Of a stretch of 64,000 nt of DNA, positions 7,526 to 46,676 are shown piece by piece; position 1 is the first letter of the stretch, and each line of letters begins with the position of its first letter. The notes under the pieces were generated by a model. It did no database searches. It was not told where the DNA came from and saw only the letters and a list, made by a program, of their open reading frames with translations. Origin of the DNA: an uncultured cyanobacterium (GTDB lineage Bacteria > Cyanobacteriota > Cyanobacteriia > Cyanobacteriales > Nostocaceae); contig CAVYXS010000258.1 in the NCBI GenBank assembly GCA_963772205.1, positions 16,325 through 80,324 on the forward strand. Direction: 5' to 3'. A program made the position numbers and the translations under genes.

Positions 7526-8207
7526 AAAACCTCGCGGGATGTGGGAAACTCAGCTTTTAAAAGCTGAGAGGGAAACGGCACGAGCGAACGCCACTTGCTA
7601 CAACTTTGGGAACCAAAGCAATGCAGTGACTCCTTTAGTCGCAGTCCCCTTACGGGGGGGTGGTAGATAGAGGAACAGTATTTACCACCTTCCCTGTATG
7701 CCGAGAATCGCCTTGCTGTTCCAGTAATGTTAGCTTAGACCTGTTATCAGAAGCTCAGTAGGCTGAAAGCACTGTTCCAGTGACCTTAGAACTGTTTAAC
7801 TTACAGCGACAGAGCGGGGAACTAGCTACGCATTCCGAGGTGTCGTGACTCAAATAACGGCTACCCTTAGACTACAATCAGGGTGGTCTGGTCAGTACGG
7901 CTTGCTTGATTTCTCTTACAAGCCCAGTCCCTTTAGGGCTGGGTTACTGACTGCTGTTTTCCCAATATCAAATCTATGTTAGCGAGTCACAATTAAAATC
8001 ACTACTCTAATCCGGCACAATAATATAGATTAAAGCTTCAAAGCATCTAGTAAAGAAGCTCTGAAGCTATGTACCTCAAACTAAAAAGCTGATATCTGTC
8101 AGGTAAGTATACCTTGTCCTGGGTTGGAGGAATTGATGCTCCTAGGGGATTAAGGTAAATAGCTGACAGACAATCGATTATGAGGGTCTAATTAACTCCC
8201 TAAATGA

Positions 8208-11091: not shown

Positions 11092-11716
11092 TTGACTGCT
11101 ACTTTTAAAGCAACAAACAACTTAACATTACCAACGGGATGGCATCGTCTGATCCCGATTTGGCAAGGTGGTGAGGAAGCAATTCAACAAAGTTTACCTC
11201 ACTCTCAGCTAGCACCAGGCTTGGCAATTACTACTTTTGGGGGATGGCTCGCCAACACGACATTTACAGTTGCTTACACGTGAGCCGACAGAAGTGGATG
11301 TTATTGACATGTCTTTGATTGGGATGGATACAGATAACGCTCCTGACTTAATTCAAGCTGTCCCGGATCCGCGACTGCGGCGTCAGGTTTGGCTACGTAC
11401 CGCCTCTGGTCAGCGATTAGGTTATGCTACTTCATGGTGGGAAGCTAGTCATGTAGATGAATTTTTGCAAAACCGTTCCTTACCGATTTGGGCGAGTTTA
11501 GCTCGTATCCGTACAGAGTTATATCGGGATATTCAAGGTATTTACTACGGTGACTCAGCTGCTTTGGAGTCAGGTTTTGAGGTTAAGGGGCCTTTTTGGG
11601 GTCGCCACTATTTATTTTGGCATCATGGACAACCTTTGACCTTGATTTATGAAGTTTTTTCGCCTTATTTAACTAAATATTTGGGTGCTACGCAGATGAG
11701 TTCCATCAATCAGTAA
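11092..11716 (+). pseudogene. chorismate lyase-like (DUF98/UbiC-like) protein, apparent +1 frameshift near 11220
   Basis: The N-terminal 43 aa (…PIWQGGEEAIQQSLPHSQLAPG) are in frame 1 and the rest (WQLLLLGDGSPTRHLQLLTREPTEVDVI…) in frame 2. The two ORFs 11092..11283 and 11237..11716 overlap. Confidence 0.55.
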
Positions 11717-11794
11717 GGGACTGACAAATAAAAAAATCTCCAATTTTTCTTGTGGGGTGGGCGTCTCGCCCGCCCGTAGCCAAGGAATATAGCG

Positions 11795-12112
11795 GTTAAG
11801 GAATATAGCGGTTATCGATTGAGTCCAATACACTCGTAGGGGCACGGCAGTGCCCATAGGTGTCAACTTAACGTGAAACCCTTGTCAAGACGTGATTTTG
11901 AATTAAATCACCTACCATCAGAATCCGCGTTACCCCACCCCGGTTTTGTCTAAAGCGAAAACCGCCCCTCCCCTTGGCAAGGGGAGGGGTTGGGGGTGGG
12001 GTAAAACGCCTGTGGGATAAGCGTTTGAGCTTAAGTTGACACCAATGGGCAGTGCCGTGCCCCTACATGCGACGATATAATTTTGTATTGCATCCAACTG
12101 AGAACAGCTATA
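11795..12112. mobile_element. nested MITEs: a 185-bp MITE with GGTGTCAACTTAAG terminal inverted repeats (11859-12043) inserted in the central palindrome of a ~110-bp MITE (GGGCACGGCAGTGCC family)
   Basis: The outer element halves (…CCAATACACTCGTAGGGGCACGGCAGTGCC | GGGCAGTGCCGTGCCCCTACATGCGACGATATAATTTTGTATTGCATCCAACTGAGAACAGCTATAG) flank the inner element. A second copy of the inner MITE is at 18523-18708. Confidence 0.7.
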
Positions 12113-12160
12113 GATGTCCACTCCACAAAATAGGATAATTTATTTGTGGAAAATCCCTAA

Positions 12161-14308
12161 TTATGGAGTTACAAAATCTAAATGATCGCCGGGGAAAGAA
12201 CGTAAATCCTGTACCGTACCTTCCATTTTCAATTTTCCTTTTTCCAAGAAAATAATCCAGTCTGCACGCTCAATTACCCTCGGACGGTGGCTAATTATAA
12301 TTGTAGTTTTGCCTTGTCTAGAAAATAACAGTTTATCTAAAACTTCTGATTCACTGCTGGGGTCAAGTCCGGCTGTGGATTCATCTAAAATTAGTACAGG
12401 TGGATTATGCACAATGGCGCGTGCTAACGCTAGTCTTTGTCTTTGTCCGCCAGAAAGATTAGCGCCAAATTCTCCTAAAACTGTTTGATATGTGTCTGGT
12501 AATTTACTAATAAATTCGTCAGCCAGGGTAATTTGACAAGCGGTAACAATTTCTTCAAAACTGACATCTGGATAACCTAAGCGGAAGTTCTCAATAATTG
12601 AGCGACTCCAAAAATGAGCATCTTGTGGGACTAAAACTACTTGTTTTCGTAAAGATTCTAAAGATAAATCTTGCAGGTTATACATACCATAGCGGATATT
12701 CCCAGATTGAACTGTATGTAACCCGGCAATTAATTTGGCTAAGGTACTTTTACCACAACCAGATTTTCCAATTAAAGCAACAACTTTACCACCGGGAATT
12801 GTGACTGAAAAATCTTCTAATAAGTCTATCCTACCAGCATAATAAAAATTTAACTTACTACAGCATATATCTGTATAACCAGGAATATTTGCTCCAGGTT
12901 TTTGTATATCTGGAGAAGATTCAGGCGTACTGTTGATAACTTCTTGAATACGGGTATTAGCAGTTTGTACATGGGCAAAATCATCTACAATACCGATAAT
13001 AAAGCTAAATAAGCCAGTGACATTACCAGTCAGGCTCGAAAATGCTATTAATTGGCCTATACTTAATTCTTTACTAATAACAAGTTGACTGCCAAATAAT
13101 AATAAACCTGTACCACCAATATTAGCAACTAGTCCAGAAAACTTTTGGTTGATAATTTGAATTTGGATGGTTGTTAAAGATAACTTAGTTAAGCGGGTAA
13201 ATCGGCTTTGTAATTCTTCCCAAAATTGTGCTGCAGCCGTAGTAGTTTTTAGGGTTAATGCACCTTTAAAAATTTCTACTAACACCCCTTGATTTTCTGC
13301 ATCCAACACCATATATTTACGGACTTTTTGCCGCACAATAGGGAGAAAGGCTATTGTAGTGATGTTCATTAAAGCCGAAATCAATAGCGCAAATAATGAT
13401 AATTTCCAGCTATAATAAAACATCAAACATAAGCAAACCACTGCCATAAAAAATCTGGTAGGGAAACCAATTACTCCTTGAGCAATAAAACTATTGATTT
13501 TCTCAATATCTCTCAATCTGCTGGCAATTTCTCCACTCCGACGAGATTCATAATATTTTAAAGGTAAAGATAATAGTTTTTGTCCAAATTCTAACATCAA
13601 CTTTAACTCGAAGCGTCGGGCAAAATTAGCAATTAGCATATTTTGCACCAATTCTAAGCTGGTGTTGATAATGTGCATGACAATTACTGCTAATACTAAA
13701 GAGAGCAGTAAATCGGTATCACCTCGCACTAAAACATCATCAGTGAGAATCTGTATCAAAAAAGGAGAAGCTAAAGACAATAAGCCAATTAATTGGGAAA
13801 TTACCAAGGCTTCTAAAATTAGACCTCGGTATGGTAAAATTCCCTGGATAACCTTTTCAAAAGTGTTAAGTTTGTCATCAGGTTCAGCAAAAAAACGATT
13901 TGCATCTGGTTGGAGTAACAACACTACGCCATTTTGCCAACCCTCAAGTAGTTCTTCTTGAGAAAGATAACGAATACCTATTGCTGGATCGCCAATAATA
14001 TATTTTTTACCACGCTGACCATACAAAACTACCCAATGATATCCTTTCCAATGGATAATTGCTGGTAGTGGCATTTTTGACAGTTTTGCCAGAAAATCAC
14101 CTGATGCTTTACCAGTTCGAGTATAAAGACCTAGGGCTTCTGTACCACGTCTTAAACCTAACAACGTAGTTCCCAATTGACCGCTACCAATGGAATCACG
14201 GATACGGTTAAGTGTTAAATTACGTCCATAGAATTTGAGAATAGAAGCAACACAAGCGGCGCCACAGTCTTCTTCACTGTACTGAATTACAACTGGGTAT
14301 TTTTTCAT
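12161..14308 (-). CDS. peptidase C39 domain-containing ABC transporter (double-glycine leader peptide processing/export, SunT/LagD-like)
   Basis: N-terminal C39 papain-like domain with catalytic Cys (EEDCGAACVASILKFYG) and His (HWVVLYG), six-TM ABC exporter domain, C-terminal ATPase (GKSGCGKST Walker A, LSGGQRQRLALARA signature, ILDEST Walker B). Confidence 0.9.
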   Translation of the reverse strand: MKKYPVVIQYSEEDCGAACVASILKFYGRNLTLNRIRDSIGSGQLGTTLLGLRRGTEALGLYTRTGKASGDFLAKLSKMPLPAIIHWKGYHWVVLYGQRGKKYIIGDPAIGIRYLSQEELLEGWQNGVVLLLQPDANRFFAEPDDKLNTFEKVIQGILPYRGLILEALVISQLIGLLSLASPFLIQILTDDVLVRGDTDLLLSLVLAVIVMHIINTSLELVQNMLIANFARRFELKLMLEFGQKLLSLPLKYYESRRSGEIASRLRDIEKINSFIAQGVIGFPTRFFMAVVCLCLMFYYSWKLSLFALLISALMNITTIAFLPIVRQKVRKYMVLDAENQGVLVEIFKGALTLKTTTAAAQFWEELQSRFTRLTKLSLTTIQIQIINQKFSGLVANIGGTGLLLFGSQLVISKELSIGQLIAFSSLTGNVTGLFSFIIGIVDDFAHVQTANTRIQEVINSTPESSPDIQKPGANIPGYTDICCSKLNFYYAGRIDLLEDFSVTIPGGKVVALIGKSGCGKSTLAKLIAGLHTVQSGNIRYGMYNLQDLSLESLRKQVVLVPQDAHFWSRSIIENFRLGYPDVSFEEIVTACQITLADEFISKLPDTYQTVLGEFGANLSGGQRQRLALARAIVHNPPVLILDESTAGLDPSSESEVLDKLLFSRQGKTTIIISHRPRVIERADWIIFLEKGKLKMEGTVQDLRSFPGDHLDFVTP

Positions 14309-14342
14309 AGTTAAAAATTAGTTTTTATGCACCGATTGATAA

Positions 14343-14395
14343 AGAACCCCACCCCCAACCCCCTCCCCGCAAGCGAGGAGGGGGCTATTATATAC
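14343..14395. repeat. GC-rich hairpin repeat (CCCCACCCCCAACCCCCTCCCCGCAAGCGAGGAGGGGGCT family)
   Basis: Near-identical copies at 18463-18515 and 32941-32992. Longer related versions at 23329-23412, 29996-30075, 37031-37133, 44648-44740 and 26633-26685. Confidence 0.75.
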
Positions 14396-14928
14396 CTCAC
14401 TAGATCGGGAAACGCTATTTATAGATATATTGCTATGAGAATGATACATAATGTGTAAAAATTCGCTCTGTCCAGATCCCCGACTTCTTAAAGGAAGTGG
14501 GGTGTCTGATTTGTCAGGAATAATTTAAAACTGTGATGGCAATATAATTTAGCAGTAAAATTCCATAAAAATTGAAAAAGTCGGCTTTTAAATTGTGGTT
14601 AATGAATTTTTATTCTTAGCTTGCAAGCATCCGAAATATCCGTTGATCAATGCATTAGGAAAGCAACAGGCGAATGGTACGAAAACATCGCCAATCAATA
14701 ATGACATGCGGTAGTATCATGTTGATACTTATAACTTAAACAATATTACTCTTAATAAGCTGGTTGCAAAGACTATATACAAGATATAGCTTTTACAACC
14801 AGCTAATGCTATGGTAGGCATAAGCCATCAAAACCCTAAGGCTAACAGAGTGCGGCTATCCCTATTAGCCGCAACTCTACCTAATTTTTGATAAATTTAA
14901 AGCTTATACGAACAGTTAGCATTTAGGA

Positions 14929-15261
14929 CTAGGATGGGCAGCCGTTATAACCGCCGCCACCATAACCGCCGCCACCATGACCGCCGCCACCATAGCTGCT
15001 GCTACCACTGCTGCTGCTGCTGCTGCTGCTGTTGCCATTATTGTTGGTATTACAAATAGTGGTATTCACAGTAATAGTGGTACTCACAGAATAAGACGGG
15101 CTAGGAGAAGATGTCGGCGCAGATCCACCGCAAAGATCGCTTAAAAACGAACCTAAATCTAAGAAACAACCACCGGAAATTGTGGATTCATTGTTTTCAG
15201 ACAAATCAGACAGGTAGGTTTCGTCAATAGAAAGTAGTTGGTTTTCAGATGCGATGATCAT
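14929..15261 (-). CDS. double-glycine leader bacteriocin-like precursor peptide 1 (Gly/Ser/Asn-rich, 4-Cys core)
   Basis: Leader MIIASENQLLSIDETYLSDLSENNESTISGG ends in the GG cleavage motif (LSxxELxxIxGG type). The core starts CFLDLGSFLSDLCGG… and carries GGGGHGGGGYGGGGYNGC tracts. Confidence 0.75.
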   Translation of the reverse strand: MIIASENQLLSIDETYLSDLSENNESTISGGCFLDLGSFLSDLCGGSAPTSSPSPSYSVSTTITVNTTICNTNNNGNSSSSSSSSGSSSYGGGGHGGGGYGGGGYNGCPS

Positions 15262-15362
15262 GAATAATTCAGTCCTTTTTGAAGTTTTGACTTGTATTTA
15301 TGAACTTTTGAAGATACTTCACAGTACAAGCTGCTAATGGATGCAGTGTACAGAAAATATCA

Positions 15363-15656
15363 TTAGTGTCCGCCGGAGCTGCTGCCGGAGCTGCTACCGC
15401 TGGTGGCATTGTTGCCGTTGGTGTTGGTATTGGTTATATAGTTATTGACTATAACCGTAGTCCCAGGGCTCTGACTAGGAGCAGGCTGTCCATAACCGCC
15501 GCCGCTGCCGCCACCGAATAAACAGCCTAAAAGACCAAAAAGCCCACCGAATAAAGAAAAACAACCACCAGAAATTGTGGATTCATTTTCTTCAGACAAA
15601 TCAGATAGGCAGCTTTCGTCAATGGAAAGTAGCTGGTTTTCGGATGCAATCATCAT
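15363..15656 (-). CDS. double-glycine leader bacteriocin-like precursor peptide 2 (paralog)
   Basis: Leader MMIASENQLLSIDESCLSDLSEENESTISGG is ~85% identical to peptide 1. Core CFSLFGGLFGLLGCLFGGGSGGGYGQ… The ~100 nt upstream is also duplicated. Confidence 0.75.
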   Translation of the reverse strand: MMIASENQLLSIDESCLSDLSEENESTISGGCFSLFGGLFGLLGCLFGGGSGGGYGQPAPSQSPGTTVIVNNYITNTNTNGNNATSGSSSGSSSGGH

Positions 15657-16451
15657 GATAAGTTTCGTCCTTTTTGAAGTTTTTACGTTTGTTTATGAAC
15701 TTTTAAAGATACTTGACAGTGCTAACTAACAATATATGCACTGTGCAGAAAGTATCAATTTTTTAATAACAGTAACTCCAGAAGATAAAAGAAAATTGTG
15801 GCTTCATTTATCTGGAATTACTGTTATTTAACTAGTTCATGTATCTAAACCTACAGTATCTACGAAAAAAAGTATAGTCTTTTTTGATTTTTTTTCGATA
15901 AAGCAAAAAATGTATCTGTAGCTATTAAGTATTTATACGCATAAATTAATTGTAAACCTTCATACTATTCTCTAACATCAGAGATTTCACATTTTCAAGA
16001 CTTATCTTTTGCGTAAAATACGATAAAAATTGAGAACTAAGTTGATACGTATTACTGGCTGTATAATATCAAGCTACAGCAGAAATAATGTAAATTTCTC
16101 ATAAAAAAAGAAAATATCGGTAAAATATGATATCTTCTGAAATAAGTGAAAATAACACATTTTAGAATCCAAAAAGTATAAAAAAACATTAAATATTCAT
16201 TTAACTATATTGAAAATACGTCCATATTGAAAAATGTAGTTTTTGTAATTTTAATAGTACTGGCGTAAAGTAAATGTAACCGAAAAAACAATATTTTGAG
16301 ATTGCTACGTCATTCCTCTAGCCTAACGGAAGCAAGTTACGCAATAACATAAATGAAAACTCACGCTTTCAAAATGGATGAGGTGTATGTGTATGGCAGA
16401 AAATAACTACTGTTTATTTAGCGTAAATTTTGGCATTTTTTGAGAAAAACT

Positions 16452-18428
16452 ATGATTAAAGTTTTGGTGGTAGATGACCAAAAAACTATTAGAGAGTACT
16501 TAAAATCTTTGATTCAAAAAGAAACAGATTTAGAAGTAGTTGGGGTTGCAGATAATGGCAAAACTGCTATTCTTGAAGTTGCTAAATTACATCCAGATGT
16601 CGTGCTAATCGATATGGAAATGCCGGAGATGGACGGTATTCATGCGACAAGGATTATTAGTGAAAGATTTCCGAAAACGAAAGTTTTGGTGTTGAGTGGT
16701 TACGACAATTATCAATATATTCAGGATTCGATAAATGCTGGAGCAATTGGTTATTTACTAAAAGATGCTTCTCCAGAAGAACTTAGAGACTCAATTCGCT
16801 TAATTGACAAAGGCTATAGTCAATTAGCGCCTGGATTAATTAGTAAAATTATTACCCAACAGACAACATCCAATTCAGAAATAGTCAAAGTTGCCAATAA
16901 TTTTGATTCTCAGGTTTCAGGAATAGTTGTTAAGGAAAATCCGCCTACTTTTTTGAATGTAATTCATCCAGACGAACTATTACCCAATACGACTCGTTGG
17001 GCAGAAGTAGGAGGGGTATTTTTAATTGGAACTGTGATTACAGGCATAATTTTGTCTGCTGTTATTGAATACAAGGTAGTTGTAAAAGCACCTGCAAATG
17101 TGCGTCCGGCTGGAGAAGTACGCTTAGTACAAGCAACACTAGAAGGAACAGTTAAAAGCATTCTTGTTAAAGAGAATCAGATGGTGAAAACACAAGATAT
17201 TATTGCCACCATCGATGATAGTCAACTACAAATAAAAAAAAGTCAACTTCTAGACAATATCCAGCAGAACCAAATGCAACTGATGCAAATGGATGCTCAA
17301 ATTAGTGGTATTAATAGACAAATAGACGCAGAAACAGACCGTAATCAGACAGCGATCGCATCGGCGACAGCAGACTTACAACGCACGCGAAGAGAATATC
17401 AGCAAAACAAATTTGCTGTTAAAGGTCAATTACAAGAAGTCCAGGCTAATATTAAAATTGCCCAAAATGAATTACAAAAAGCCGAATTTGACTTGCAATC
17501 AATGCAAGCGAATCTGAAAGTGACAGAAGCAGCATTAAAAGTTGCTAAACTCAAGAGCGATCGCTATCAAAGTATTGCTACATCCGGCTCCATTTCTCAA
17601 AATCAATTGGAAGAAGTTCAATTAGGGGTACAACAGCAACAACAATCTCTGATTTCACAAAAAGCGAGTTTAGAAGCTCAAAAGCAAGTTGTCGAAAGAC
17701 AAAGACAAGCGATAGCAGTAGCAATGACCAAATATAAACCAGCAGCAGCAGCCATCAACCCTACTAATGCTGTTTTATCAGTGGTAGAAGGAAAAATTGC
17801 CCAAGAACGGGCTGCAGGTGAAGGAAGTTTAGCACGATTGAAGCAAGAAGAAAATAGTTTAATTCAGCGGAAAATCGAAATTCAAAATATAATTAACAGC
17901 GCCAAAAAAGACTTAGGACAAATAGAAAAACAACTGCAAGCAACTGTGATTCGTTCTCCCGACAAAGGGACAATTTTGAAATTAGAACTGCGAAATCCGC
18001 AGCAGTTAGTTCATGCGGGAGAAGCGATTGCTCAAATAGCCCCTTCTGAGGCACCTTTAGTAGTCAAAGCCAATGTCAGCGCTGAGGATATTAGCAAAGT
18101 AAAAGTCTGTAAATCTCCAAAAGTTGCACTCTGCGAACAAGGTAAAGTGCAAATGCGAATTTCCGCGTATCCTTACCCAGATTATGGCATTTTGCAGGGC
18201 GCTGTCAGAAGTATTAGTGCTGATGTGATTACACCCGCAAGTAATCCCATTGTGCCAACTGCACCTTACTATGAAGTGACTATCGAACCAGAGAAACTTA
18301 ATTTAAAAAAAGGTAATAAATTGTATCCAATCCAAGCAGGAATGGAAGTAAACGCCGAAATTATTTCCCAAAAAGAGACTTTTTTAACCTTGATTCTGAG
18401 AAAAGCACGGCTTATGACTAATTTATAG
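16452..18428 (+). CDS. response-regulator receiver domain fused to HlyD-family membrane fusion (secretion adaptor) protein
   Basis: N-terminal CheY-like REC (VLVVDDQ…, phospho-acceptor Asp in VVLIDMEMPEMDG, LVLSGY, YLLKD). Then a TM helix (VGGVFLIGTVITGIILSAVI), long coiled-coil and HlyD C-terminal beta-barrel (ATVIRSPDKGTILKLEL). Start taken at ATG 16452 (ORF opens with TTG at 16440). Confidence 0.85.
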   Translation: MIKVLVVDDQKTIREYLKSLIQKETDLEVVGVADNGKTAILEVAKLHPDVVLIDMEMPEMDGIHATRIISERFPKTKVLVLSGYDNYQYIQDSINAGAIGYLLKDASPEELRDSIRLIDKGYSQLAPGLISKIITQQTTSNSEIVKVANNFDSQVSGIVVKENPPTFLNVIHPDELLPNTTRWAEVGGVFLIGTVITGIILSAVIEYKVVVKAPANVRPAGEVRLVQATLEGTVKSILVKENQMVKTQDIIATIDDSQLQIKKSQLLDNIQQNQMQLMQMDAQISGINRQIDAETDRNQTAIASATADLQRTRREYQQNKFAVKGQLQEVQANIKIAQNELQKAEFDLQSMQANLKVTEAALKVAKLKSDRYQSIATSGSISQNQLEEVQLGVQQQQQSLISQKASLEAQKQVVERQRQAIAVAMTKYKPAAAAINPTNAVLSVVEGKIAQERAAGEGSLARLKQEENSLIQRKIEIQNIINSAKKDLGQIEKQLQATVIRSPDKGTILKLELRNPQQLVHAGEAIAQIAPSEAPLVVKANVSAEDISKVKVCKSPKVALCEQGKVQMRISAYPYPDYGILQGAVRSISADVITPASNPIVPTAPYYEVTIEPEKLNLKKGNKLYPIQAGMEVNAEIISQKETFLTLILRKARLMTNL

Positions 18429-24127: not shown

Positions 24128-25225
24128 TTATGCTTTTACACATAGCTTTGTACTCCGTTTGATAAGTTGAACTTTTGCTGGGCTGAATTGCCCAATTCTG
24201 CGCCAGTTGTGGTCATACACAGAAACATTTTTAGTTTTTGGAGTCTGCGTATAGCCACCAATCCAGCCAATATAAAATTTACCCGCTTTTTCAGCTTTCA
24301 CTAAGTCACCAGAACGTAATCCGAATGGCGTAATTGTTCCACCTTTGCGCTTTCTGTTGCCAGGAATATCTTTAACAGGGTTCTCGAAATGAAGCTGACG
24401 ACGGAATAGATTTGGACGCGCAATTATGCGGAATGGTGCAGGTGTAATAGCAACGAATCCTACCCAGCGATGTCCCCGACTATTAGCAGTGTGGAATTTC
24501 TCAAACCGCATGAAGTTGCTAGATGCTAATGCAATCCCGTCATGAGCATGAGTCTCTGGAGTTTGTTTTGATTTGTCTTTCTTGTCTTTAGATAATCCTA
24601 ATTGCTGCCTGAGTATTGAAGTCTGCCACCCTTCTTGTGTATTGGTTGGTACAATTTCACAGAGCCATTCCAGCATCACTTTTTGACCAACCATCACAGG
24701 ACTAAAACCTTTGTCGCCTTTCGCTTTGATGTATTCGTAGGTGATTTGAGTTACAGGAAATAATTTGACTAATTCTTTGGTAATTCGTAATTCTAATTCC
24801 TTGTTAGCGCGAATACTGGGAGGCAATTTATTCTGTTTGCGGTTGTTAAACCTTTTTTGACGGTGCGCCCTTTGATTAAACGTTACTTTGCGATTTATCC
24901 TTCTACCTCGTCTAGCACGTCTCAATAATCGTCTACCATCCATCTTTTTGGTGACATCTGAAAATGGCAATATTAGATGTGCCATAAATAATGTGAATTT
25001 AACAGACTGGACACCAACGCCAGTAAACTTTTTACCAGGGTCTAATCCCAAAGCTATTGATTGAGTGTCATAACCAGACGGTTCCACTAATAGCTGAATG
25101 CCAAAAATATTGAGGTCATTCTGTACAATCTTGGCTTTACCTTCCTTAAGCCAACGTCTAGCTCTACTGGCTTTTGTTGGCATCATGGGTTTACCGTTTT
25201 TATCTAACACTGGAACACGAATCAT
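24128..25225 (-). CDS. isrB: IsrB-like OMEGA RNA-guided nickase (IscB homolog lacking the HNH domain, IS200/IS605 superfamily)
   Basis: N-terminal RRXRR/PLMP domain MIRVPVLDKNGKPMMPTKASRARRWLKEGKAKIV; RuvC-I IALGLDPGKKFTGVGV; Arg-rich bridge helix RRLLRRARRGRRINRKVTFNQRAHRQKRFNNRK; RuvC-II ITYEYIKA; RuvC-III THAHDGIALASS. No CxxC…H…N HNH insertion between RuvC-II and III. 365 aa. Confidence 0.8.
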   Translation of the reverse strand: MIRVPVLDKNGKPMMPTKASRARRWLKEGKAKIVQNDLNIFGIQLLVEPSGYDTQSIALGLDPGKKFTGVGVQSVKFTLFMAHLILPFSDVTKKMDGRRLLRRARRGRRINRKVTFNQRAHRQKRFNNRKQNKLPPSIRANKELELRITKELVKLFPVTQITYEYIKAKGDKGFSPVMVGQKVMLEWLCEIVPTNTQEGWQTSILRQQLGLSKDKKDKSKQTPETHAHDGIALASSNFMRFEKFHTANSRGHRWVGFVAITPAPFRIIARPNLFRRQLHFENPVKDIPGNRKRKGGTITPFGLRSGDLVKAEKAGKFYIGWIGGYTQTPKTKNVSVYDHNWRRIGQFSPAKVQLIKRSTKLCVKA

Positions 25226-35244: not shown

Positions 35245-37020
35245 TTGAATTTCTTACACAACCGTTATCGCTTGCTGAAGTTAATTGGTAAAGGGGGATT
35301 CTGCAAAACCTATCTCGCTGTAGATGAGGGTGAGTTTCCCCCTGTTCCTTGTGTTGTGCAACAATTGTCGAATGACAATCAAACACCTGCAGCTTTTGTG
35401 CAAAAGGCGCAGTTACTACAAGAGTTGGGACAGCATCCACAAATTCCCGCAATACTGGCACATTTCGAGGATAATCAGCATTTTTATTGGGTGCAGGAGT
35501 TTATTGCTGGCGCTAATTTGGCTACCTTATTGGCAGATGAGGGAAGCTTTAGTGAAACTCAAATTTGGCAACTTTTAGAGAATATATTACCAGTTATTAA
35601 ATTTATTAGCGATCGCCATCTGATTCACCGCGATATTAAACCAGAAAATATTATTCGCACATCCCCCGGAAATTTCGTCTTAGTTGATTTTGGTGCGGCT
35701 ATAATCACCAGCGCCATTAACCAGCTAACTGTTGAAAATACTATTGGTAGTCCAGTATATATCGCTCCAGAACAAGCCGAGGGAAAACCAGTTTTTGCGA
35801 GTGATCTTTACAGCCTGGGTGTAACTTGCATTCACCTACTGACTCAGATTCCGCCTTTTGATTTATTTGATATTGCGAACGATTGTTGGATTTGGCAACA
35901 GTATCTTACCACCAGAGTGAGTCAGCGTCTCTCACAAACTCTCAACAAACTGCTACAAAATAACCTCACCCAACGCTTTCAAACAGCGGATGAAGTGATG
36001 GAAACTACAGGTATCATTGATGCCCACCCTTACCCAGCAATCACTTCAGAGTCTATCAGCAGTCCAAAATTGCCAATTCATCCACAATGGCAATGTATAC
36101 ATACAATTAGTGGACATTCCAGTATATCTGCTGCTATTAACTCTCTGGCTTTCAGCCCTGATGGTAACACCCTCGCCAGTGGCGATGATGACAAAATCAC
36201 GAGATTGTGGGATTTAAGCACCAAAAAATTGCTAACCAGCTTGAAAGGACATAGCCAAGGGGTGAAATCTGTAGCCTTTAGTCCTGATGGACAAATTTTA
36301 GCAACGGCTAGCGACGATAAAACTATTAAATTGTGGAATTTCAACACATTCGCAGAAATCTTCACCCTCAGCGGACACTCAAATGCAGTGAAATCAGTAG
36401 CTTTCAGTCCAGATGGACAGATGCTTGCTAGTGGAAGTTGGGATAAAACAGTCAAACTCTGGGATGTCAATAATGGTCAAGAAATTTGTACCCTGACTGG
36501 ACATCAATTACAAGTAAGTTCAGTCGCCTTTAGTCCCCAAGGAGAACTGTTAGCCAGCGCCAGTTTTGACAGAACGATTCGCCTGTGGCAACTTTCTGCC
36601 AGAGAATTGAAAAACCGCCCAGATTATACCTTGTTAGGCACCCTTTCAGGACATGCTAGGACGGTTTTAACAATCGCTTTTAGTCCCGATGGTCAAATTT
36701 TGGCGACGGGTGGCGACGATAACACAATAAAATTGTGGGAGGTAAACACTGGTCAGATAATTACCACACTTTCAGGTCATTCTTGGTCGGTGGTAGCATT
36801 AGCTTTCACTGCTGATGGCGAAACGCTGATTAGCGCCAGTTGGGATCAGACAGTTAAACTGTGGAGAGTAAGAACTGCAGAACAAATTGCTACTCTATCG
36901 AGTCATGTAGACTCTGTATCTGCCATTGCTGTGAGTCAAGTTGCACAGCTAATTGCTAGCGGTAGCAAGGATAAGACCATCAAATTATGGCAGCCTTTGA
37001 CCCACCCACGCCTAGAATGA
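35245..37020 (+). CDS. serine/threonine protein kinase fused to WD40 repeat domain
   Basis: Kinase motifs GKGGFCKTY, HRDIKPENII, DFG, APE. Then seven WD40 repeats (…LASGDDDKITRLWDL…, …ASDDKTIKLWNF…). Confidence 0.9.
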   Translation: MNFLHNRYRLLKLIGKGGFCKTYLAVDEGEFPPVPCVVQQLSNDNQTPAAFVQKAQLLQELGQHPQIPAILAHFEDNQHFYWVQEFIAGANLATLLADEGSFSETQIWQLLENILPVIKFISDRHLIHRDIKPENIIRTSPGNFVLVDFGAAIITSAINQLTVENTIGSPVYIAPEQAEGKPVFASDLYSLGVTCIHLLTQIPPFDLFDIANDCWIWQQYLTTRVSQRLSQTLNKLLQNNLTQRFQTADEVMETTGIIDAHPYPAITSESISSPKLPIHPQWQCIHTISGHSSISAAINSLAFSPDGNTLASGDDDKITRLWDLSTKKLLTSLKGHSQGVKSVAFSPDGQILATASDDKTIKLWNFNTFAEIFTLSGHSNAVKSVAFSPDGQMLASGSWDKTVKLWDVNNGQEICTLTGHQLQVSSVAFSPQGELLASASFDRTIRLWQLSARELKNRPDYTLLGTLSGHARTVLTIAFSPDGQILATGGDDNTIKLWEVNTGQIITTLSGHSWSVVALAFTADGETLISASWDQTVKLWRVRTAEQIATLSSHVDSVSAIAVSQVAQLIASGSKDKTIKLWQPLTHPRLE

Positions 37021-45692: not shown

Positions 45693-46535
45693 TTAAGAGA
45701 GTTGGAACAGGAATGTCATCAAATCTCCCTTACCTAAACTGATGCGATCGCCTGGTCTCAAACGGTGTCTGTTACCCGGTAATAGCGGCAAATTGTTAAT
45801 GTAAGTGCCATTAGAACTACCTACATCTTCGATATAATGAGCGTCTGCCTCAACACGAATGTCTGCATGAATCCGTGAAACAATTTCCGAATTAGGAAAA
45901 CCTGACACATCGATATCAGGAGGAATACGGTCATTTGCTTTGCCAATATGAACCACAGACAGAGTTTGAGGTAATTCAATGTCTGTGTCGCTTTGAACAT
46001 GGTATAGCCTTGCTGTCACCTGCTGTAATTGCGTTCTGGCAGGACTAACGGGGGCAGCGACTGGTTCCGGTGGTGCAGCAACTGGCTCCGGTGGTGCGGC
46101 GACTGGTTCCGGTGGTGCAGCGACTGGTTCCGGTGGTGCAGCAACTGGTTCCGGTGGTGCAGCAACTGGTTCCGGTGGTGCGGCGACTGGTTCCGGGGTG
46201 ACGGCGACTGGTTCCGGGGTGACGGCGACTGGAGCAACAGCCATCGCTGTTGCTGGTAAACCGGAAACAGCAGTGGGGGTACCGAGTGGTAAAGGGTCAG
46301 GGGTAACTAACGGCGGTACAGGGATTTCGGGTGCTACAGTTGCTACTACTGCAGTTGCAGGAACAGCGGCAGATGAGTGTAGATTATAACCACATTGACC
46401 ACAGAAAGCGGCATCTGCCTGCACAGTAGCCCCACAGCTGGGACAATTACTAGTTGCTGGTAACGGCGTATAACAAGCTTCGCACTGGACAGCGCCGTCT
46501 GGGTTGGGATGATTGCAATTGGGACAGACGATCAT
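45693..46535 (-). CDS. zinc-ribbon + proline-rich repeat + FHA domain protein
   Basis: N-terminal double zinc ribbon (CPNCNHPNP…CEAC; CPSCGATV…CGQCG). Eight tandem PEPVAAP units (21-nt repeats). C-terminal FHA (YIEDVGSSNGTYINNLPLLPGNRHRLRPGDRISLG). Start taken at Met31 of ORF (MIVCPNC). Confidence 0.75.
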   Translation of the reverse strand: MIVCPNCNHPNPDGAVQCEACYTPLPATSNCPSCGATVQADAAFCGQCGYNLHSSAAVPATAVVATVAPEIPVPPLVTPDPLPLGTPTAVSGLPATAMAVAPVAVTPEPVAVTPEPVAAPPEPVAAPPEPVAAPPEPVAAPPEPVAAPPEPVAAPPEPVAAPVSPARTQLQQVTARLYHVQSDTDIELPQTLSVVHIGKANDRIPPDIDVSGFPNSEIVSRIHADIRVEADAHYIEDVGSSNGTYINNLPLLPGNRHRLRPGDRISLGKGDLMTFLFQLS

Positions 46536-46676
46536 GGATTTCCGCCTTTGTTCAAGATGATCGTAAAATTGTACTGGCAAGCAGAGAGAACTCCTAGCCG
46601 CACAAGTCGCGGCTCGATAGTTCAACAGAGGAGCGACTCTAGCAATAGATTCTCACAATTACTCCTGATGGGAAAG

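What the first reader, a model, noticed from the sequence alone, without database searches (positions are those of the whole stretch)
16452..18428. CheY-like receiver domain fused to an HlyD membrane fusion protein
A full REC domain is fused N-terminally to the TM helix, coiled-coil and HlyD beta-barrel of a secretion adaptor. The REC has a predicted phospho-acceptor Asp in VVLIDMEMPEMDG and conserved S/T and K positions. This implies phosphorylation-dependent control of peptide export by an unidentified histidine kinase. The gene is divergently transcribed from the peptide genes across an AT-rich ~780-nt region (15657-16451), which could hold coordinated promoters. No function has been described for REC-HlyD fusions.
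Basis: partly seen in the sequence, partly recalled or inferred. Interest (0 to 1): 0.6.

Follow-up and report, generated by a model that had tools for sequence, protein, structure and literature searches.

The report
Receiver domain fused to peptide-secretion adaptor
A cyanobacterial gene joins an intact two-component phospho-receiver domain to the membrane adaptor of a small-peptide export pump, which suggests, without proving, that a kinase signal controls peptide secretion directly at the pump rather than through gene expression.

Summary
ORF 16452..18428(+) encodes a 658-aa protein with four parts:
- a NarL/LiaR-type receiver (REC, res 1-125);
- a flexible ~55-residue linker;
- one TM helix (181-204);
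- a periplasmic HlyD-type adaptor (lipoyl domain, long helical hairpins, beta-barrel).

All REC pocket and switch residues are present (D8, D9, D54, S82, Y101, K104). They are near-invariant in 50 related fusion proteins, and REC dN/dS is 0.08-0.28.

The gene lies divergent to two double-glycine-leader peptide genes and a C39-peptidase ABC exporter. It is therefore the adaptor of a cyanobacterial bacteriocin/EbfG-type export system.

The fusion is rare but recurrent in cyanobacteria: 22 of the best 150 family representatives carry REC. It usually sits next to a C39-ABC gene, and never next to a histidine kinase in the loci read. One very close relative has cleanly lost REC and kept the rest. 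The Tolypothrix ortholog keeps REC-HlyD but has lost the ABC and peptide genes.

Other family members carry NB-ARC NTPases or an undescribed ~110-aa domain at the same position. The cytoplasmic N-terminus looks like a modular signal-input slot.

Phosphorylation-gated export is the best reading, but it is inferred. I found no paper describing this fusion. Verdict: a new variant of a known kind, of moderate interest.

The parts
16452..18428 (+). REC-HlyD gene (658 aa plus stop): receiver, linker, TM helix and periplasmic type-I-secretion adaptor
   Evidence: ORF. Pfam Response_reg, Biotin_lipoyl_2 and HlyD_3. TIGR01843 partial match. AF2 model. Orthologs at 70-81% identity.
16452..16826 (+). Receiver (REC) domain, res 1-125, NarL/LiaR/DesR type. 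The phospho-acceptor D54 codon is at 16611-16613. The other pocket and switch residues are D8, D9, S82, Y101 and K104.
   Evidence: Pfam E 7.9e-29. PDB best hit 5hev LiaR/VraR, E 2e-26. Foldseek TM about 0.9 to DesR and NarL REC. Pocket conserved in 50 fusion RECs. dN/dS 0.08-0.28.
16827..16991 (+). Post-REC segment, res 126-180. It begins with the end of the NarL-type alpha6 motif (KGYSQLAPGLISKI), continues as a poorly conserved low-confidence linker, and ends in the conserved DELLP motif just before the membrane.
   Evidence: pLDDT below 50 for 129-180. dN/dS 0.30-0.71. The motif [DE]E[FL]LP is shared with unfused HlyDs.
16992..17066 (+). Single transmembrane helix, res about 181-205
   Evidence: Kyte-Doolittle maximum 2.29 at 187-205. 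AF2 helix 181-204.
17067..18425 (+). Periplasmic adaptor, res 206-658: lipoyl/beta elements, Q/A-rich helical hairpins at 257-497, beta-barrel at 499-643
   Evidence: Pfam. PDB HlyD of the HlyB/D complex 8dck/7sgr and LipC 5nen. Foldseek EmrA, MacA and LipC.
15657..16451 (.). Divergent intergenic region, 795 nt, 27% G+C. The peptide-proximal ~240 nt are 82% identical to L006 by blastn and also align with L004.
   Evidence: Promoter-like hits occur on both strands, but consensus matches only.
15762..15831 (.). Inverted repeat with 21-nt arms (90% complementary, 28-nt spacer), immediately upstream of the best promoter-like site of peptide gene B (-35 at 15758, -10 ending at 15731, minus strand). 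Candidate regulator site.
   Evidence: the repeat finder I3. Promoter scan 10/12. Both arms are visible in L004 and L006 on reading the alignment. Function not tested.
15363..15656 (-). Peptide gene B (97 aa): double-glycine leader ...LSDLSEENESTISGG, then a hydrophobic G/F/L/C-rich stretch and an N/T/S/G-rich low-complexity tail
   Evidence: Translation. Homologous peptides in L004 and L006. No Pfam or NCBIfam family.
14929..15261 (-). Peptide gene A (110 aa), a tandem paralog of B. The duplication covers the leader and about 100 nt upstream.
   Evidence: Translation. Direct repeat D1, 220 nt at 80%.
12161..14308 (-). C39-peptidase ABC exporter (715 aa, PCAT type). The Q-x5-C15, H and D catalytic motif positions are present.
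   Evidence: Pfam Peptidase_C39, ABC_membrane and ABC_tran. TIGR03796, TIGR01846 and TIGR01193 below cut-offs. 93.5% identical to the ABC of L004 and of L006. The motif was read from the sequence.

Best explanation
**What it is (shown).** The gene encodes the membrane-fusion (HlyD-type) adaptor of a cyanobacterial double-glycine-peptide export machine. The partners are a C39-peptidase ABC exporter and two secreted G/S/N/T-rich small proteins. The adaptor's short cytoplasmic N-terminus is replaced by a complete, phosphorylation-competent NarL/LiaR-type receiver domain on a flexible ~55-residue tether.

**How it most likely works (inferred).**
1. An unlinked HisKA_3-type histidine kinase phosphorylates D54.
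2. Phosphorylated RECs of this family dimerise.
3. T1SS adaptors form hexamers around three ABC dimers, so six tethered RECs hang next to the C39 and nucleotide-binding domains.
4. Pairing of these RECs, or their phospho-dependent docking on the ABC protein, switches the complex between export-competent and idle states. [quoted passage not shown]

The result would be post-translational, signal-gated secretion of the peptides. This would add to any transcriptional control from the divergent promoter region. REC is a regulatory add-on, not part of the core machine.
For: **Architecture and REC integrity**
- Domain layout.
- Pocket and switch residues align with CheY and NarL.
- In 50 fusion RECs: D54 in 49/50, K104 in 50/50, S/T82 in 50/50, Y/F101 in 50/50.
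- Purifying selection on REC (dN/dS 0.08-0.28) matches that on the adaptor (0.18-0.26). The linker is relaxed at 0.30-0.71.

**REC type and likely kinase**
- The REC is NarL/LiaR/DesR-type and 55-60% identical to cyanobacterial REC-GerE regulators.
- One such regulator sits beside a HisKA_3 kinase.

**Export context**
- The window has an active-type C39-ABC and GG-leader peptides.
- The same layout occurs in L004 and L095. A C39-ABC lies adjacent in L007, L010 and L011.

**REC as an accessory module**
- L006 has lost REC exactly, with homology resuming at residue 130. Its adaptor, ABC (93.5% identical) and peptides are kept.
- The tether is flexible, with pLDDT below 50 at 129-180.
- The same N-terminal slot holds NB-ARC NTPases or a novel domain in other family members.

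**Literature**
- Cytoplasmic domains of T1SS adaptors are described as essential for substrate recognition and assembly (PMC8277102).
- The HlyB/D inner-membrane complex is a trimer of HlyB dimers with associated HlyD protomers.
- HlyD is required for EbfG-dependent biofilm formation in S. elongatus (PMC11345509).
Against: - There is no experimental evidence of phosphorylation, dimerisation or any effect on export.
- No kinase lies in the window or beside any related locus. The input is unknown.
- The direction of control, activation or inhibition, cannot be told.
- The long disordered tether means the coupling mechanism is guesswork.
- The REC-less L006 system keeps an almost identical ABC protein. 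This gives no sign of a co-adapted REC docking surface.
- Tolypothrix keeps REC-HlyD under selection without adjacent ABC or cargo genes. The REC-adaptor may therefore serve a different or additional partner.
- Hexameric stoichiometry and REC dimerisation are carried over from E. coli HlyB/D and from LiaR/VraR/DesR. They were not tested here.
Confidence: 0.55

Rival explanations
1. Phosphate sink or branch point. The membrane-tethered REC does not gate the pump. It competes with a soluble REC-GerE regulator for phosphoryl groups from a shared HisKA_3 kinase. It thereby tunes transcription of the peptide genes according to how much adaptor is present or engaged. The coupling runs from export machinery to gene expression.
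For: - The REC is 55-60% identical to canonical REC-GerE regulators, close enough for a shared kinase.
- One such regulator is paired with a HisKA_3 kinase.
- A conserved inverted repeat lies upstream of the peptide promoter and could be a regulator site.
- A flexible tether suits a domain that mainly needs to be reachable by a kinase.
Against: - A sink would not need fusion to an adaptor.
- Other signalling modules (NB-ARC, a novel domain) occupy the same slot. This argues that the slot feeds information into the adaptor rather than out of it.
- No cognate regulator or kinase is encoded nearby.
Confidence: 0.15
2. Autoinduction loop of the ComAB/ComDE type, with a shortcut. One of the secreted peptides is itself the signal. 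A membrane kinase senses it outside the cell and phosphorylates the REC on the adaptor, giving direct positive or negative feedback on export.
For: - GG-leader peptides, a C39-ABC and an accessory protein are the export half of Gram-positive peptide-pheromone circuits. This rests on established knowledge of ComAB/ComCDE and Blp/Pln systems.
- There are two paralogous peptides, each with its own duplicated upstream region.
- The S. elongatus EbfG system is under control of an extracellular inhibitor (PMC11345509).
Against: - The cores are long (66-79 aa), low-complexity and G/S/N/T-rich. They look more like matrix or amyloid-type EbfG proteins than pheromones (PMC12267927).
- Cargo differs completely between fusion-bearing loci. 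L007 has an R/K-then-D-rich core and L011 a short G/D-rich core. The REC is therefore not tied to one peptide type.
- No kinase gene is in the cluster.
Confidence: 0.1
3. Phosphorylation-independent structural role. The REC is an oligomerisation or docking domain that stabilises the adaptor-ABC complex. The Asp pocket is conserved only because it maintains the fold.
For: - The REC is orphan in every locus read.
- Phospho-independent REC domains are known in other proteins (general knowledge).
Against: - All five catalytic residues and both switch residues are kept in nearly all of 50 fusion sequences. Phospho-independent receivers usually lose some of them.
- The L006 system lost REC with no visible compensating change. 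REC is therefore not structurally required.
Confidence: 0.12
4. Assembly or annotation artefact, or a decaying gene fusion without function.
For: The fusion is rare: 26 of the 240 proteins listed from 5.8 billion 90%-identity clusters were identified as fusions.
Against: - The reading frame is intact in independent genomes and metagenomes and in conserved synteny.
- dN/dS is well below 1 in both halves.
- 22 of the top 150 50%-identity representatives carry REC.
Confidence: 0.01

Closest known systems
E. coli HlyD of the HlyB-HlyD-TolC type I secretion system (PDB 7SGR/8DCK)
   Same: - Same order of parts: cytoplasmic N-terminus, single TM helix, lipoyl/beta elements, long helical hairpin, beta-barrel.
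- Encoded next to an ABC exporter that has an N-terminal C39-fold domain.
- Direct sequence hit to 8dck_C (E 4e-13) and 7sgr_H.
   Different: [quoted passage not shown] Here the cytoplasmic part is a 125-aa receiver plus a ~55-aa tether.
- The partner ABC has an active C39 peptidase (Cys present), not the inactive CLD.
- The cargo is GG-leader small proteins, not a C-terminal-signal RTX toxin.
- The TIGR01843 score of 139.6 is below the 208.65 cut-off.
Synechococcus elongatus PCC 7942 EbfG1-4 / PteB / HlyD (Synpcc7942_1134-1132) biofilm-promoting secretion system, and the Anabaena PCC 7120 GG-peptide clusters (alr1200-1202, alr5147/8, alr7010-7014)
   Same: - Cyanobacterial clusters of several GG-motif small proteins, a C39-ABC exporter and a HlyD adaptor.
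- The adaptor is needed for the phenotype (PMC11345509, PMC4997328, PMC12267927).
- The window cargo is also low-complexity.
   Different: - These papers describe the adaptors only as HlyD homologs or HlyD-family secretion proteins, and mention no fused domain.
- Regulation there is transcriptional (SigF1, extracellular inhibitor).
- Sequence homology of the window peptides to EbfG proteins was not tested.
- A biofilm role here is not shown.
Gram-positive class II bacteriocin and competence export-signalling modules (ComAB with ComCDE; Blp and Pln systems)
   Same: - A GG-leader peptide is cleaved and exported by a C39-ABC with a HlyD-like accessory protein. There is a weak hit to TIGR01000 bacteriocin_acc, E 7e-12.
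- A two-component system is functionally tied to the export system.
   Different: - There the response regulator is a separate DNA-binding protein acting on transcription, and the kinase gene is in the cluster.
- Here the receiver is fused to the accessory protein, has no DNA-binding domain, and no kinase is nearby.
- This comparison rests on general knowledge, not on a test made here.
Alg44 of Pseudomonas aeruginosa (PilZ - TM - MFP-like periplasmic domain)
   Same: - Same design logic. A cytoplasmic second-messenger or signal-receiving domain is fused through one TM helix to a periplasmic HlyD/MFP-like domain of an envelope-spanning export machine. The result is post-translational control.
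- The HlyD-like domain of Alg44 is noted in PMC4971617.
   Different: - The input domain is PilZ (c-di-GMP), not REC.
- The partner is a glycosyltransferase (Alg8), not an ABC exporter.
- The cargo is a polysaccharide.
- No sequence relationship was tested.
NarL/FixJ-family response regulators (LiaR, VraR, DesR, NarL; cyanobacterial REC-GerE regulators)
   Same: - The REC domain matches 5hev at E 2e-26 and Foldseek hits at TM about 0.9 and 35-39% identity.
- It is 55-60% identical to cyanobacterial REC-GerE proteins.
- The family's alpha6 linker motif is retained.
   Different: - The GerE/LuxR helix-turn-helix output domain is absent. A linker, a TM helix and a secretion adaptor replace it.
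- In an NJ tree, the 115 canonical regulators form one clade separate from the fusion RECs.

Membership tests
Response-regulator receiver domain (REC, Pfam PF00072) | Profile match above the curated threshold, and a (beta-alpha)5 fold | tested here: met
   100.5 bits against a cut-off of 30.2. AF2 gives five strand-helix units at pLDDT about 90. Foldseek TM about 0.9 to DesR and NarL REC.
Response-regulator receiver domain (REC, Pfam PF00072) | Catalytic pocket: acidic pair after beta1, phospho-acceptor Asp at the end of beta3, Ser/Thr at the end of beta4, Lys at the end of beta5, aromatic switch residue on beta5 | tested here: met
   D8, D9, D54, S82, K104 and Y101 align with CheY D12, D13, D57, T87, K109 and Y106. 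They are near-invariant in 50 fusion RECs.
Response-regulator receiver domain (REC, Pfam PF00072) | Actual phosphotransfer from a histidine kinase or small-molecule donor | not testable with these tools
   No kinase in the window or in neighbouring genes of related loci. Needs biochemistry.
NarL/FixJ (LuxR-type) response regulators | C-terminal GerE/LuxR helix-turn-helix DNA-binding domain | tested here: not met
   No GerE hit. Residues after the alpha6 motif are linker, TM helix and HlyD. Only the REC and alpha6 are of this type.
HlyD-type membrane fusion / periplasmic adaptor protein of type I secretion (TIGR01843; Pfam HlyD_3, Biotin_lipoyl_2) | N-terminal single TM anchor followed by lipoyl domain, alpha-helical hairpin and beta-barrel | tested here: met
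   PDB hits to HlyD (8dck, 7sgr) and LipC (5nen).
HlyD-type membrane fusion / periplasmic adaptor protein of type I secretion (TIGR01843; Pfam HlyD_3, Biotin_lipoyl_2) | Score above the curated NCBIfam subfamily cut-off for type_I_hlyD | tested here: not met
   139.6 bits against a cut-off of 208.65, in two partial stretches. It belongs to a diverged cyanobacterial branch. Pfam HlyD_3 is above its own cut-off (50.4 against 22.2).
HlyD-type membrane fusion / periplasmic adaptor protein of type I secretion (TIGR01843; Pfam HlyD_3, Biotin_lipoyl_2) | Genetic linkage to an ABC exporter; cooperation with a TolC-like outer-membrane factor | tested here: inconclusive
   A C39-ABC gene is adjacent in the window and in L004, L095, L006, L007, L010 and L011. 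It is absent beside the Tolypothrix ortholog and the L008 pair. No outer-membrane factor was looked for or seen in the window.
Peptidase-containing ABC transporter (PCAT) / double-glycine peptide export cluster (cyanobacterial 'bacteriocin' clusters of Wang et al. 2011; EbfG/PteB type) | ABC exporter with an N-terminal C39 peptidase that has the catalytic Cys/His | tested here: met
   Peptidase_C39 E 1e-32. The sequence shows Q9...DC15GAAC, a His in GYHWVVL and an Asp in IGDPA. Activity was not tested.
Peptidase-containing ABC transporter (PCAT) / double-glycine peptide export cluster (cyanobacterial 'bacteriocin' clusters of Wang et al. 2011; EbfG/PteB type) | Adjacent small precursor genes with a leader ending in Gly-Gly | tested here: met
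   Both peptides read ...LSDLSE(N/E)NESTISGG|C.... The leaders are conserved in L004 and L006.
Peptidase-containing ABC transporter (PCAT) / double-glycine peptide export cluster (cyanobacterial 'bacteriocin' clusters of Wang et al. 2011; EbfG/PteB type) | Demonstrated secretion, and a biological role (antimicrobial or biofilm matrix) | not testable with these tools
   No family match for the peptides. The role is unknown.
Alg44-type signal-domain/MFP fusions | N-terminal PilZ domain binding c-di-GMP | tested here: not met
   No PilZ hit. The N-terminal domain is REC. Alg44 is an analogy of design only.

The most novel reading that the evidence does not exclude
The cytoplasmic N-terminus of this cyanobacterial HlyD adaptor family is a modular signal-input slot. 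It holds a receiver domain here. In other family members it holds NB-ARC/STAND NTPases, an undescribed ~110-aa 'NWDL...LRGLLCGYSP' domain, or a cyclophilin.

If so, secretion of double-glycine peptides would be gated post-translationally at the pump by phosphorylation or nucleotide switches. REC-HlyD would then be a new class of two-component output: direct control of a type I/PCAT secretion machine. This machine type has so far been treated as regulated through gene expression and substrate availability.
Probability: 0.4. Interest if true: 0.72.

Novelty: new variant of a known kind. Interest (0 to 1): 0.55.

Why it matters
Type I and PCAT secretion systems are generally described as substrate-triggered and controlled at the level of transcription. 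A receiver domain built into the adaptor, at the position where the HlyD cytoplasmic domain contacts the ABC exporter and influences TolC recruitment, offers a concrete and genetically simple test. D54A or D54E alleles, or the natural REC-less allele, would show whether a two-component signal can switch a secretion machine directly.

The cargo family is linked in S. elongatus to biofilm formation and cell specialisation. The fusion could therefore connect environmental sensing to matrix or peptide release in filamentous cyanobacteria.

The wider pattern of REC, STAND NTPase and novel domains in the same slot suggests a general, unstudied layer of regulation in this adaptor family. It also gives an entry point for finding the orphan kinase.

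Tried and rejected
2. **Exact look-up of the window protein P0001.** Not on record, so the source genome and its kinases could not be inspected.
3. **Profile search with A1.** It added only four partial fusions. The rest were canonical REC-GerE regulators, useful for typing the REC but not for counting fusions.
4. **Pfam and NCBIfam on the two peptides.** No family was found.
5. **Search for a histidine kinase or partner regulator.** Twenty further ORFs of the window were scanned, and none is a kinase or regulator. A Ser/Thr kinase-WD40 protein (35245-37020) and an FHA protein (45693-46625) are present, but nothing links them to the cluster.
6. **Rfam on the whole window.** Nothing lies in the intergenic region.
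7. **Literature (the Galperin 2006 census is not held).** No description of REC-HlyD was found.
Rejected: the pocket is intact and conserved.
9. **Artefact or pseudogene hypothesis.** Rejected.
10. **Rigid helical coupling from REC to the TM helix.** Considered unlikely because residues 129-180 are low-confidence and fast-evolving.
11. **Single versus multiple origin of the fusion.** The NJ trees do not settle it. In the adaptor tree, fusions fall in several clades mixed with unfused proteins. In the REC tree, the canonical regulators form one clade and all fusion RECs lie outside it. That fits one old fusion followed by losses, but internal branches are very short.
Full report

Yes. The ORF listing returns one long ORF, 16440..18428 on the + strand. 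The ATG at 16452 gives 658 aa and is the start used by all orthologs, which begin MIKV or MIRV.

Pfam places Response_reg at residues 4-115 (E 7.9e-29, 100.5 bits, cut-off 30.2). Biotin_lipoyl_2 is at 226-255 and HlyD_3 at 499-620. NCBIfam gives a partial type_I_hlyD match of 139.6 bits, below its 208.65 cut-off, plus many NarL-, UvrY- and CheB-type receiver matches. A single strongly hydrophobic segment lies at 186-205.

An AlphaFold2 model was built on a 50-sequence alignment and has mean pLDDT 81. It shows:
- a five-unit beta-alpha receiver at 1-119 (pLDDT about 90);
- a low-confidence stretch at 129-180;
- a TM helix at 181-204;
- beta/lipoyl elements, then long helical hairpins at 257-497;
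- a beta-barrel at 499-643.

Foldseek against the PDB matches the C-terminal part to the periplasmic adaptors EmrA, MacA and LipC. It matches the N-terminal part to LiaR, DesR, VraR and NarL receivers (TM about 0.9 on the target, 35-39% identity). By sequence, the best solved relatives are LiaR/VraR (5hev, E 2e-26) and the HlyD chain of the HlyB/HlyD complex (8dck, 7sgr).

**2. Is the receiver intact?**

Yes. Aligned with CheY and NarL, the protein has the acidic pair D8/D9 and the phospho-acceptor D54 (VVLID-MEMPEMDG). It also has S82, the aromatic switch Y101 and K104.

In 50 receiver-adaptor fusion sequences collected from three searches, conservation is high:

| Position | Conservation |
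|---|---|
| Phospho-acceptor D54 | Asp in 49/50 |
| K104 | Lys in 50/50 |
| S82 | Ser or Thr in 50/50 |
| Y101 | Tyr or Phe in 50/50 |
| First acidic residue (D8) | Asp in 46/46 non-gapped sequences |

Among four close orthologs, dN/dS is 0.08-0.28 for REC, 0.18-0.26 for the TM plus adaptor part, and 0.30-0.71 for the linker.

**3. What kind of receiver is it?**

It is NarL/FixJ-type. It keeps the family's post-REC alpha6 motif (KGYxQLAPGL), which is conserved in all fusions. Its nearest relatives in a 5.8-billion-protein collection are cyanobacterial REC-GerE regulators, 55-60% identical over residues 1 to about 140. One of these, P0176 from Nostocales, is encoded directly after a HisKA_3 histidine kinase. 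By inference only, the missing kinase is of the HisKA_3 (NarX/LiaS/DesK) class.

In an NJ tree of 165 receivers, the 115 canonical regulators form one clade and all fusion receivers lie outside it. This is compatible with a single old fusion event. The branches are short and the regulator sample was selected by similarity, so the point is not settled.

**4. Surroundings**

On the minus strand, divergent from the gene, lie two paralogous small-protein genes, 15363..15656 (97 aa) and 14929..15261 (110 aa). Their leaders end in ...NESTISGG. Each core has a hydrophobic G/F/L/C-rich stretch and an N/T/S/G-rich low-complexity tail. They are a tandem duplication that includes about 100 nt of upstream sequence.

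Next comes a 715-aa ABC exporter at 12161..14308(-), with Peptidase_C39, ABC_membrane and ABC_tran domains. It has the Gln/Cys/His/Asp positions of an active C39 peptidase, as read from the sequence.

The intergenic region 15657-16451 is 795 nt at 27% G+C. Its peptide-proximal 240 nt are 82% identical to L006 by blastn and also align with L004. It contains a 21-nt-arm inverted repeat (15762-15831) just upstream of the best promoter-like site of peptide gene B.

The whole cassette, about 12.1-18.4 kb, has lower G+C (0.32-0.40) than the flanks. No histidine kinase or further response regulator was found among the 26 ORFs scanned against Pfam, which include all 17 ORFs of 300 aa or more.

This is a cyanobacterial double-glycine-peptide / C39-ABC / HlyD cluster of the kind catalogued by Wang et al. 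2011 (PMC3140520). It was studied functionally as EbfG1-4/PteB/HlyD in S. elongatus. There, inactivating the HlyD homolog abolishes biofilm formation in a biofilm-forming mutant (PMC11345509; PMC4997328). Candidate counterparts have been proposed in Anabaena (PMC12267927).

**5. Comparative genomics**

| Locus | Organism or source | Layout |
|---|---|---|
| Window, L004, L095 | L095 is Calothrix FACHB-156; L004 is a JGI assembly at 81% identity | accC, chorismate lyase, C39-ABC(-), peptides(-), REC-HlyD(+), DUF3352 |
| L001 | Tolypothrix tenuis PCC 7101, ortholog at 71% | Same flanks, but nothing equivalent to window 11704-16450. Nucleotide homology resumes exactly at the start codon. |
| L006 | Cluster includes a Stigonema ocellatum MAG protein | ABC (93.5% identical), peptides and an adaptor 86% identical over its own length, at a different genomic site. 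REC is missing. |
| L007, L010, L011 | More distant fusions, 36-46% identity | C39-ABC gene directly beside the fusion. L007 and L011 also carry GG-leader peptides with quite different cores. |
| L008 | Metagenome | Two REC-HlyD genes in tandem, no ABC within the contig |

In Tolypothrix the REC is still under strong purifying selection. In L006, protein homology begins at residue 130, inside the alpha6 motif, and the unique post-REC linker is retained. This is a clean, recent loss of the receiver.

No locus has an adjacent kinase.

From these comparisons:
- The module travels as a unit.
- REC is an accessory that can be lost without visible change in the partners.
- The REC-adaptor can outlive its neighbouring ABC and cargo genes.

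**6. How common is the fusion?**

It is rare but recurrent. An exhaustive HMMER search of 1.84 billion 50%-identity representatives gave 377 family members at E<=1e-30. Among the best 150:
- 22 carry an N-terminal REC;
- 5 carry an N-terminal NB-ARC/NACHT STAND NTPase;
- 8 share an undescribed ~110-aa N-terminal domain (motifs NWDL ... LRGLLCGYSP) with no Pfam match;
- 1 carries a cyclophilin;
- 1 carries a TPR-like segment.

All named fusion-bearing sequences are cyanobacterial: Calothrix, Tolypothrix and 'Cyanobacteria bacterium'. In an NJ tree of the adaptor part, REC-bearing proteins fall in at least four clades. The window clade is nested among unfused ~500-aa adaptors.

Unfused relatives begin only about 25-45 residues before the TM helix. 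They share with the fusions the motif [DE]E[FL]LP just before the membrane.

**7. Mechanism**

*Shown:* an adaptor of a GG-peptide export system carries an intact, selected, NarL-type receiver on the cytoplasmic side, joined by a flexible tether.

*Established elsewhere:*
- The adaptors of T1SS have cytoplasmic domains that are essential for substrate recognition and complex assembly (PMC8277102 section 7.2).
- The E. coli inner-membrane complex is a trimer of HlyB dimers with associated HlyD protomers.
- Receivers of the LiaR, VraR and DesR type dimerise when phosphorylated (general knowledge of those structures, which are the top structural matches).

*Inferred:* an unlinked HisKA_3 kinase phosphorylates D54. 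The tethered receivers then pair, or dock on the C39 or nucleotide-binding domains. This switches the pump between idle and export-competent states, giving post-translational gating of peptide release. The direction of control is unknown.

The closest design precedent is Alg44, where a cytoplasmic PilZ domain is joined through one TM helix to an MFP-like periplasmic domain. I give this reading 0.55.

*Rivals:*
- a phosphate sink or branch that feeds back on transcription (0.15);
- a peptide-sensing autoinduction shortcut of the ComAB/ComDE type (0.10);
- a phosphorylation-independent structural role (0.12);
- an artefact (0.01).

**8. Novelty and verdict**

Annotation pipelines call these proteins 'response regulator' or 'secretion protein HlyD'. 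The architecture is therefore visible in databases. Four full-text searches found no paper that describes or tests it.

Both halves belong to well-known families, and the export system is of a known cyanobacterial kind. What is new is the direct wiring of a two-component receiver, and in relatives other switch domains, into the adaptor. I classify it as a new variant of a known kind.

Interest is 0.55. A specialist in secretion or two-component signalling would find it a neat and testable case. The function is inferred, the kinase is unknown and the fusion is taxonomically narrow.

Noticed in passing
Proteins P0254, P0265, P0303, P0325, P0351: Members of the same HlyD adaptor family carry an N-terminal NB-ARC/NACHT (STAND NTPase) domain of about 350-600 aa in place of the receiver. 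This architecture, a STAND NTPase joined through a TM helix to a secretion adaptor, seems undescribed.
   Followed up: partly
Proteins P0080, P0255, P0259, P0260, P0264, P0281, P0285, P0338: Eight family representatives share a conserved ~110-aa N-terminal cytoplasmic domain with motifs NWDL...IY and L(T/S)xxEKxILRGLLCGYSPxQIA. It has no Pfam match. The second motif looks like a LuxR/GerE-type helix-turn-helix, but this was not confirmed.
   Followed up: partly
Protein P0343: A cyclophilin-type peptidyl-prolyl isomerase (E 1e-25) is fused N-terminally to an adaptor of this family. Rotamase (SurA) genes are known companions of cyanobacterial bacteriocin clusters.
   Followed up: no
window 15762-15831: An inverted repeat (21-nt arms, 90% complementary, 28-nt spacer) sits directly upstream of the promoter-like site of peptide gene B. 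Both arms are visible in L004 and L006 in the alignment. It is a candidate regulator-binding site or RNA hairpin.
   Followed up: partly
L006 9568-10100: The closest relative of the adaptor (86% identity) has lost the receiver cleanly. Its ORF starts MSVAENKFSKIITQQ..., inside the alpha6 motif. The peptide-proximal promoter region is retained.
   Followed up: yes
L001/L002 9407-10000 (Tolypothrix tenuis PCC 7101 and a second assembly): The ortholog of REC-HlyD lies in the same synteny, but the ABC exporter and peptide genes (window 11704-16450) are absent. The orphan adaptor is intact and under purifying selection.
   Followed up: yes
L008 4231-8028: Two REC-HlyD paralogs (589 and 586 aa) are encoded in tandem. 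No ABC exporter lies within the 16 kb of flanking sequence held for this locus (22.9-kb contig).
   Followed up: no
L010 2501-3862 and 8682-9344: The fusion and its C39-ABC are flanked by a REC-DUF3102 protein. On the other side is a GerE protein whose receiver-like N-terminus lacks the acidic pair and has Asn at the acceptor position (LVLNFNT), a likely pseudo-receiver.
   Followed up: no
L007 6208-6462: The GG-leader peptide of this distant fusion locus has an extraordinary core. A run of Arg/Lys (HRRRRRKKRRKGRG) is followed by repeated DDDDGG(K/R)GRR units. It is very different from the window's G/S/N/T-rich cargo.
   Followed up: no
window 7724-7951 (-) and 24128-25225 (-): A HEARO RNA (HNH-endonuclease-associated RNA, 129 bits against a gathering score of 83) lies at 7724-7951. 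About 16 kb away is an RRXRR-family ORF (365 aa). No link between the two was examined.
   Followed up: no
window 12000-18400: The ABC, peptide and REC-HlyD cassette has lower G+C (0.32-0.40) than its flanks (0.42-0.48). The REC-less version in L006 sits at a different chromosomal site. This suggests the module moves as a unit.
   Followed up: partly
window 35245-37020 (+) and 45693-46625 (-): A Ser/Thr protein kinase fused to WD40 repeats, and a zinc-ribbon/FHA protein, are encoded in the window. Neither has any evident link to the cluster.
   Followed up: no
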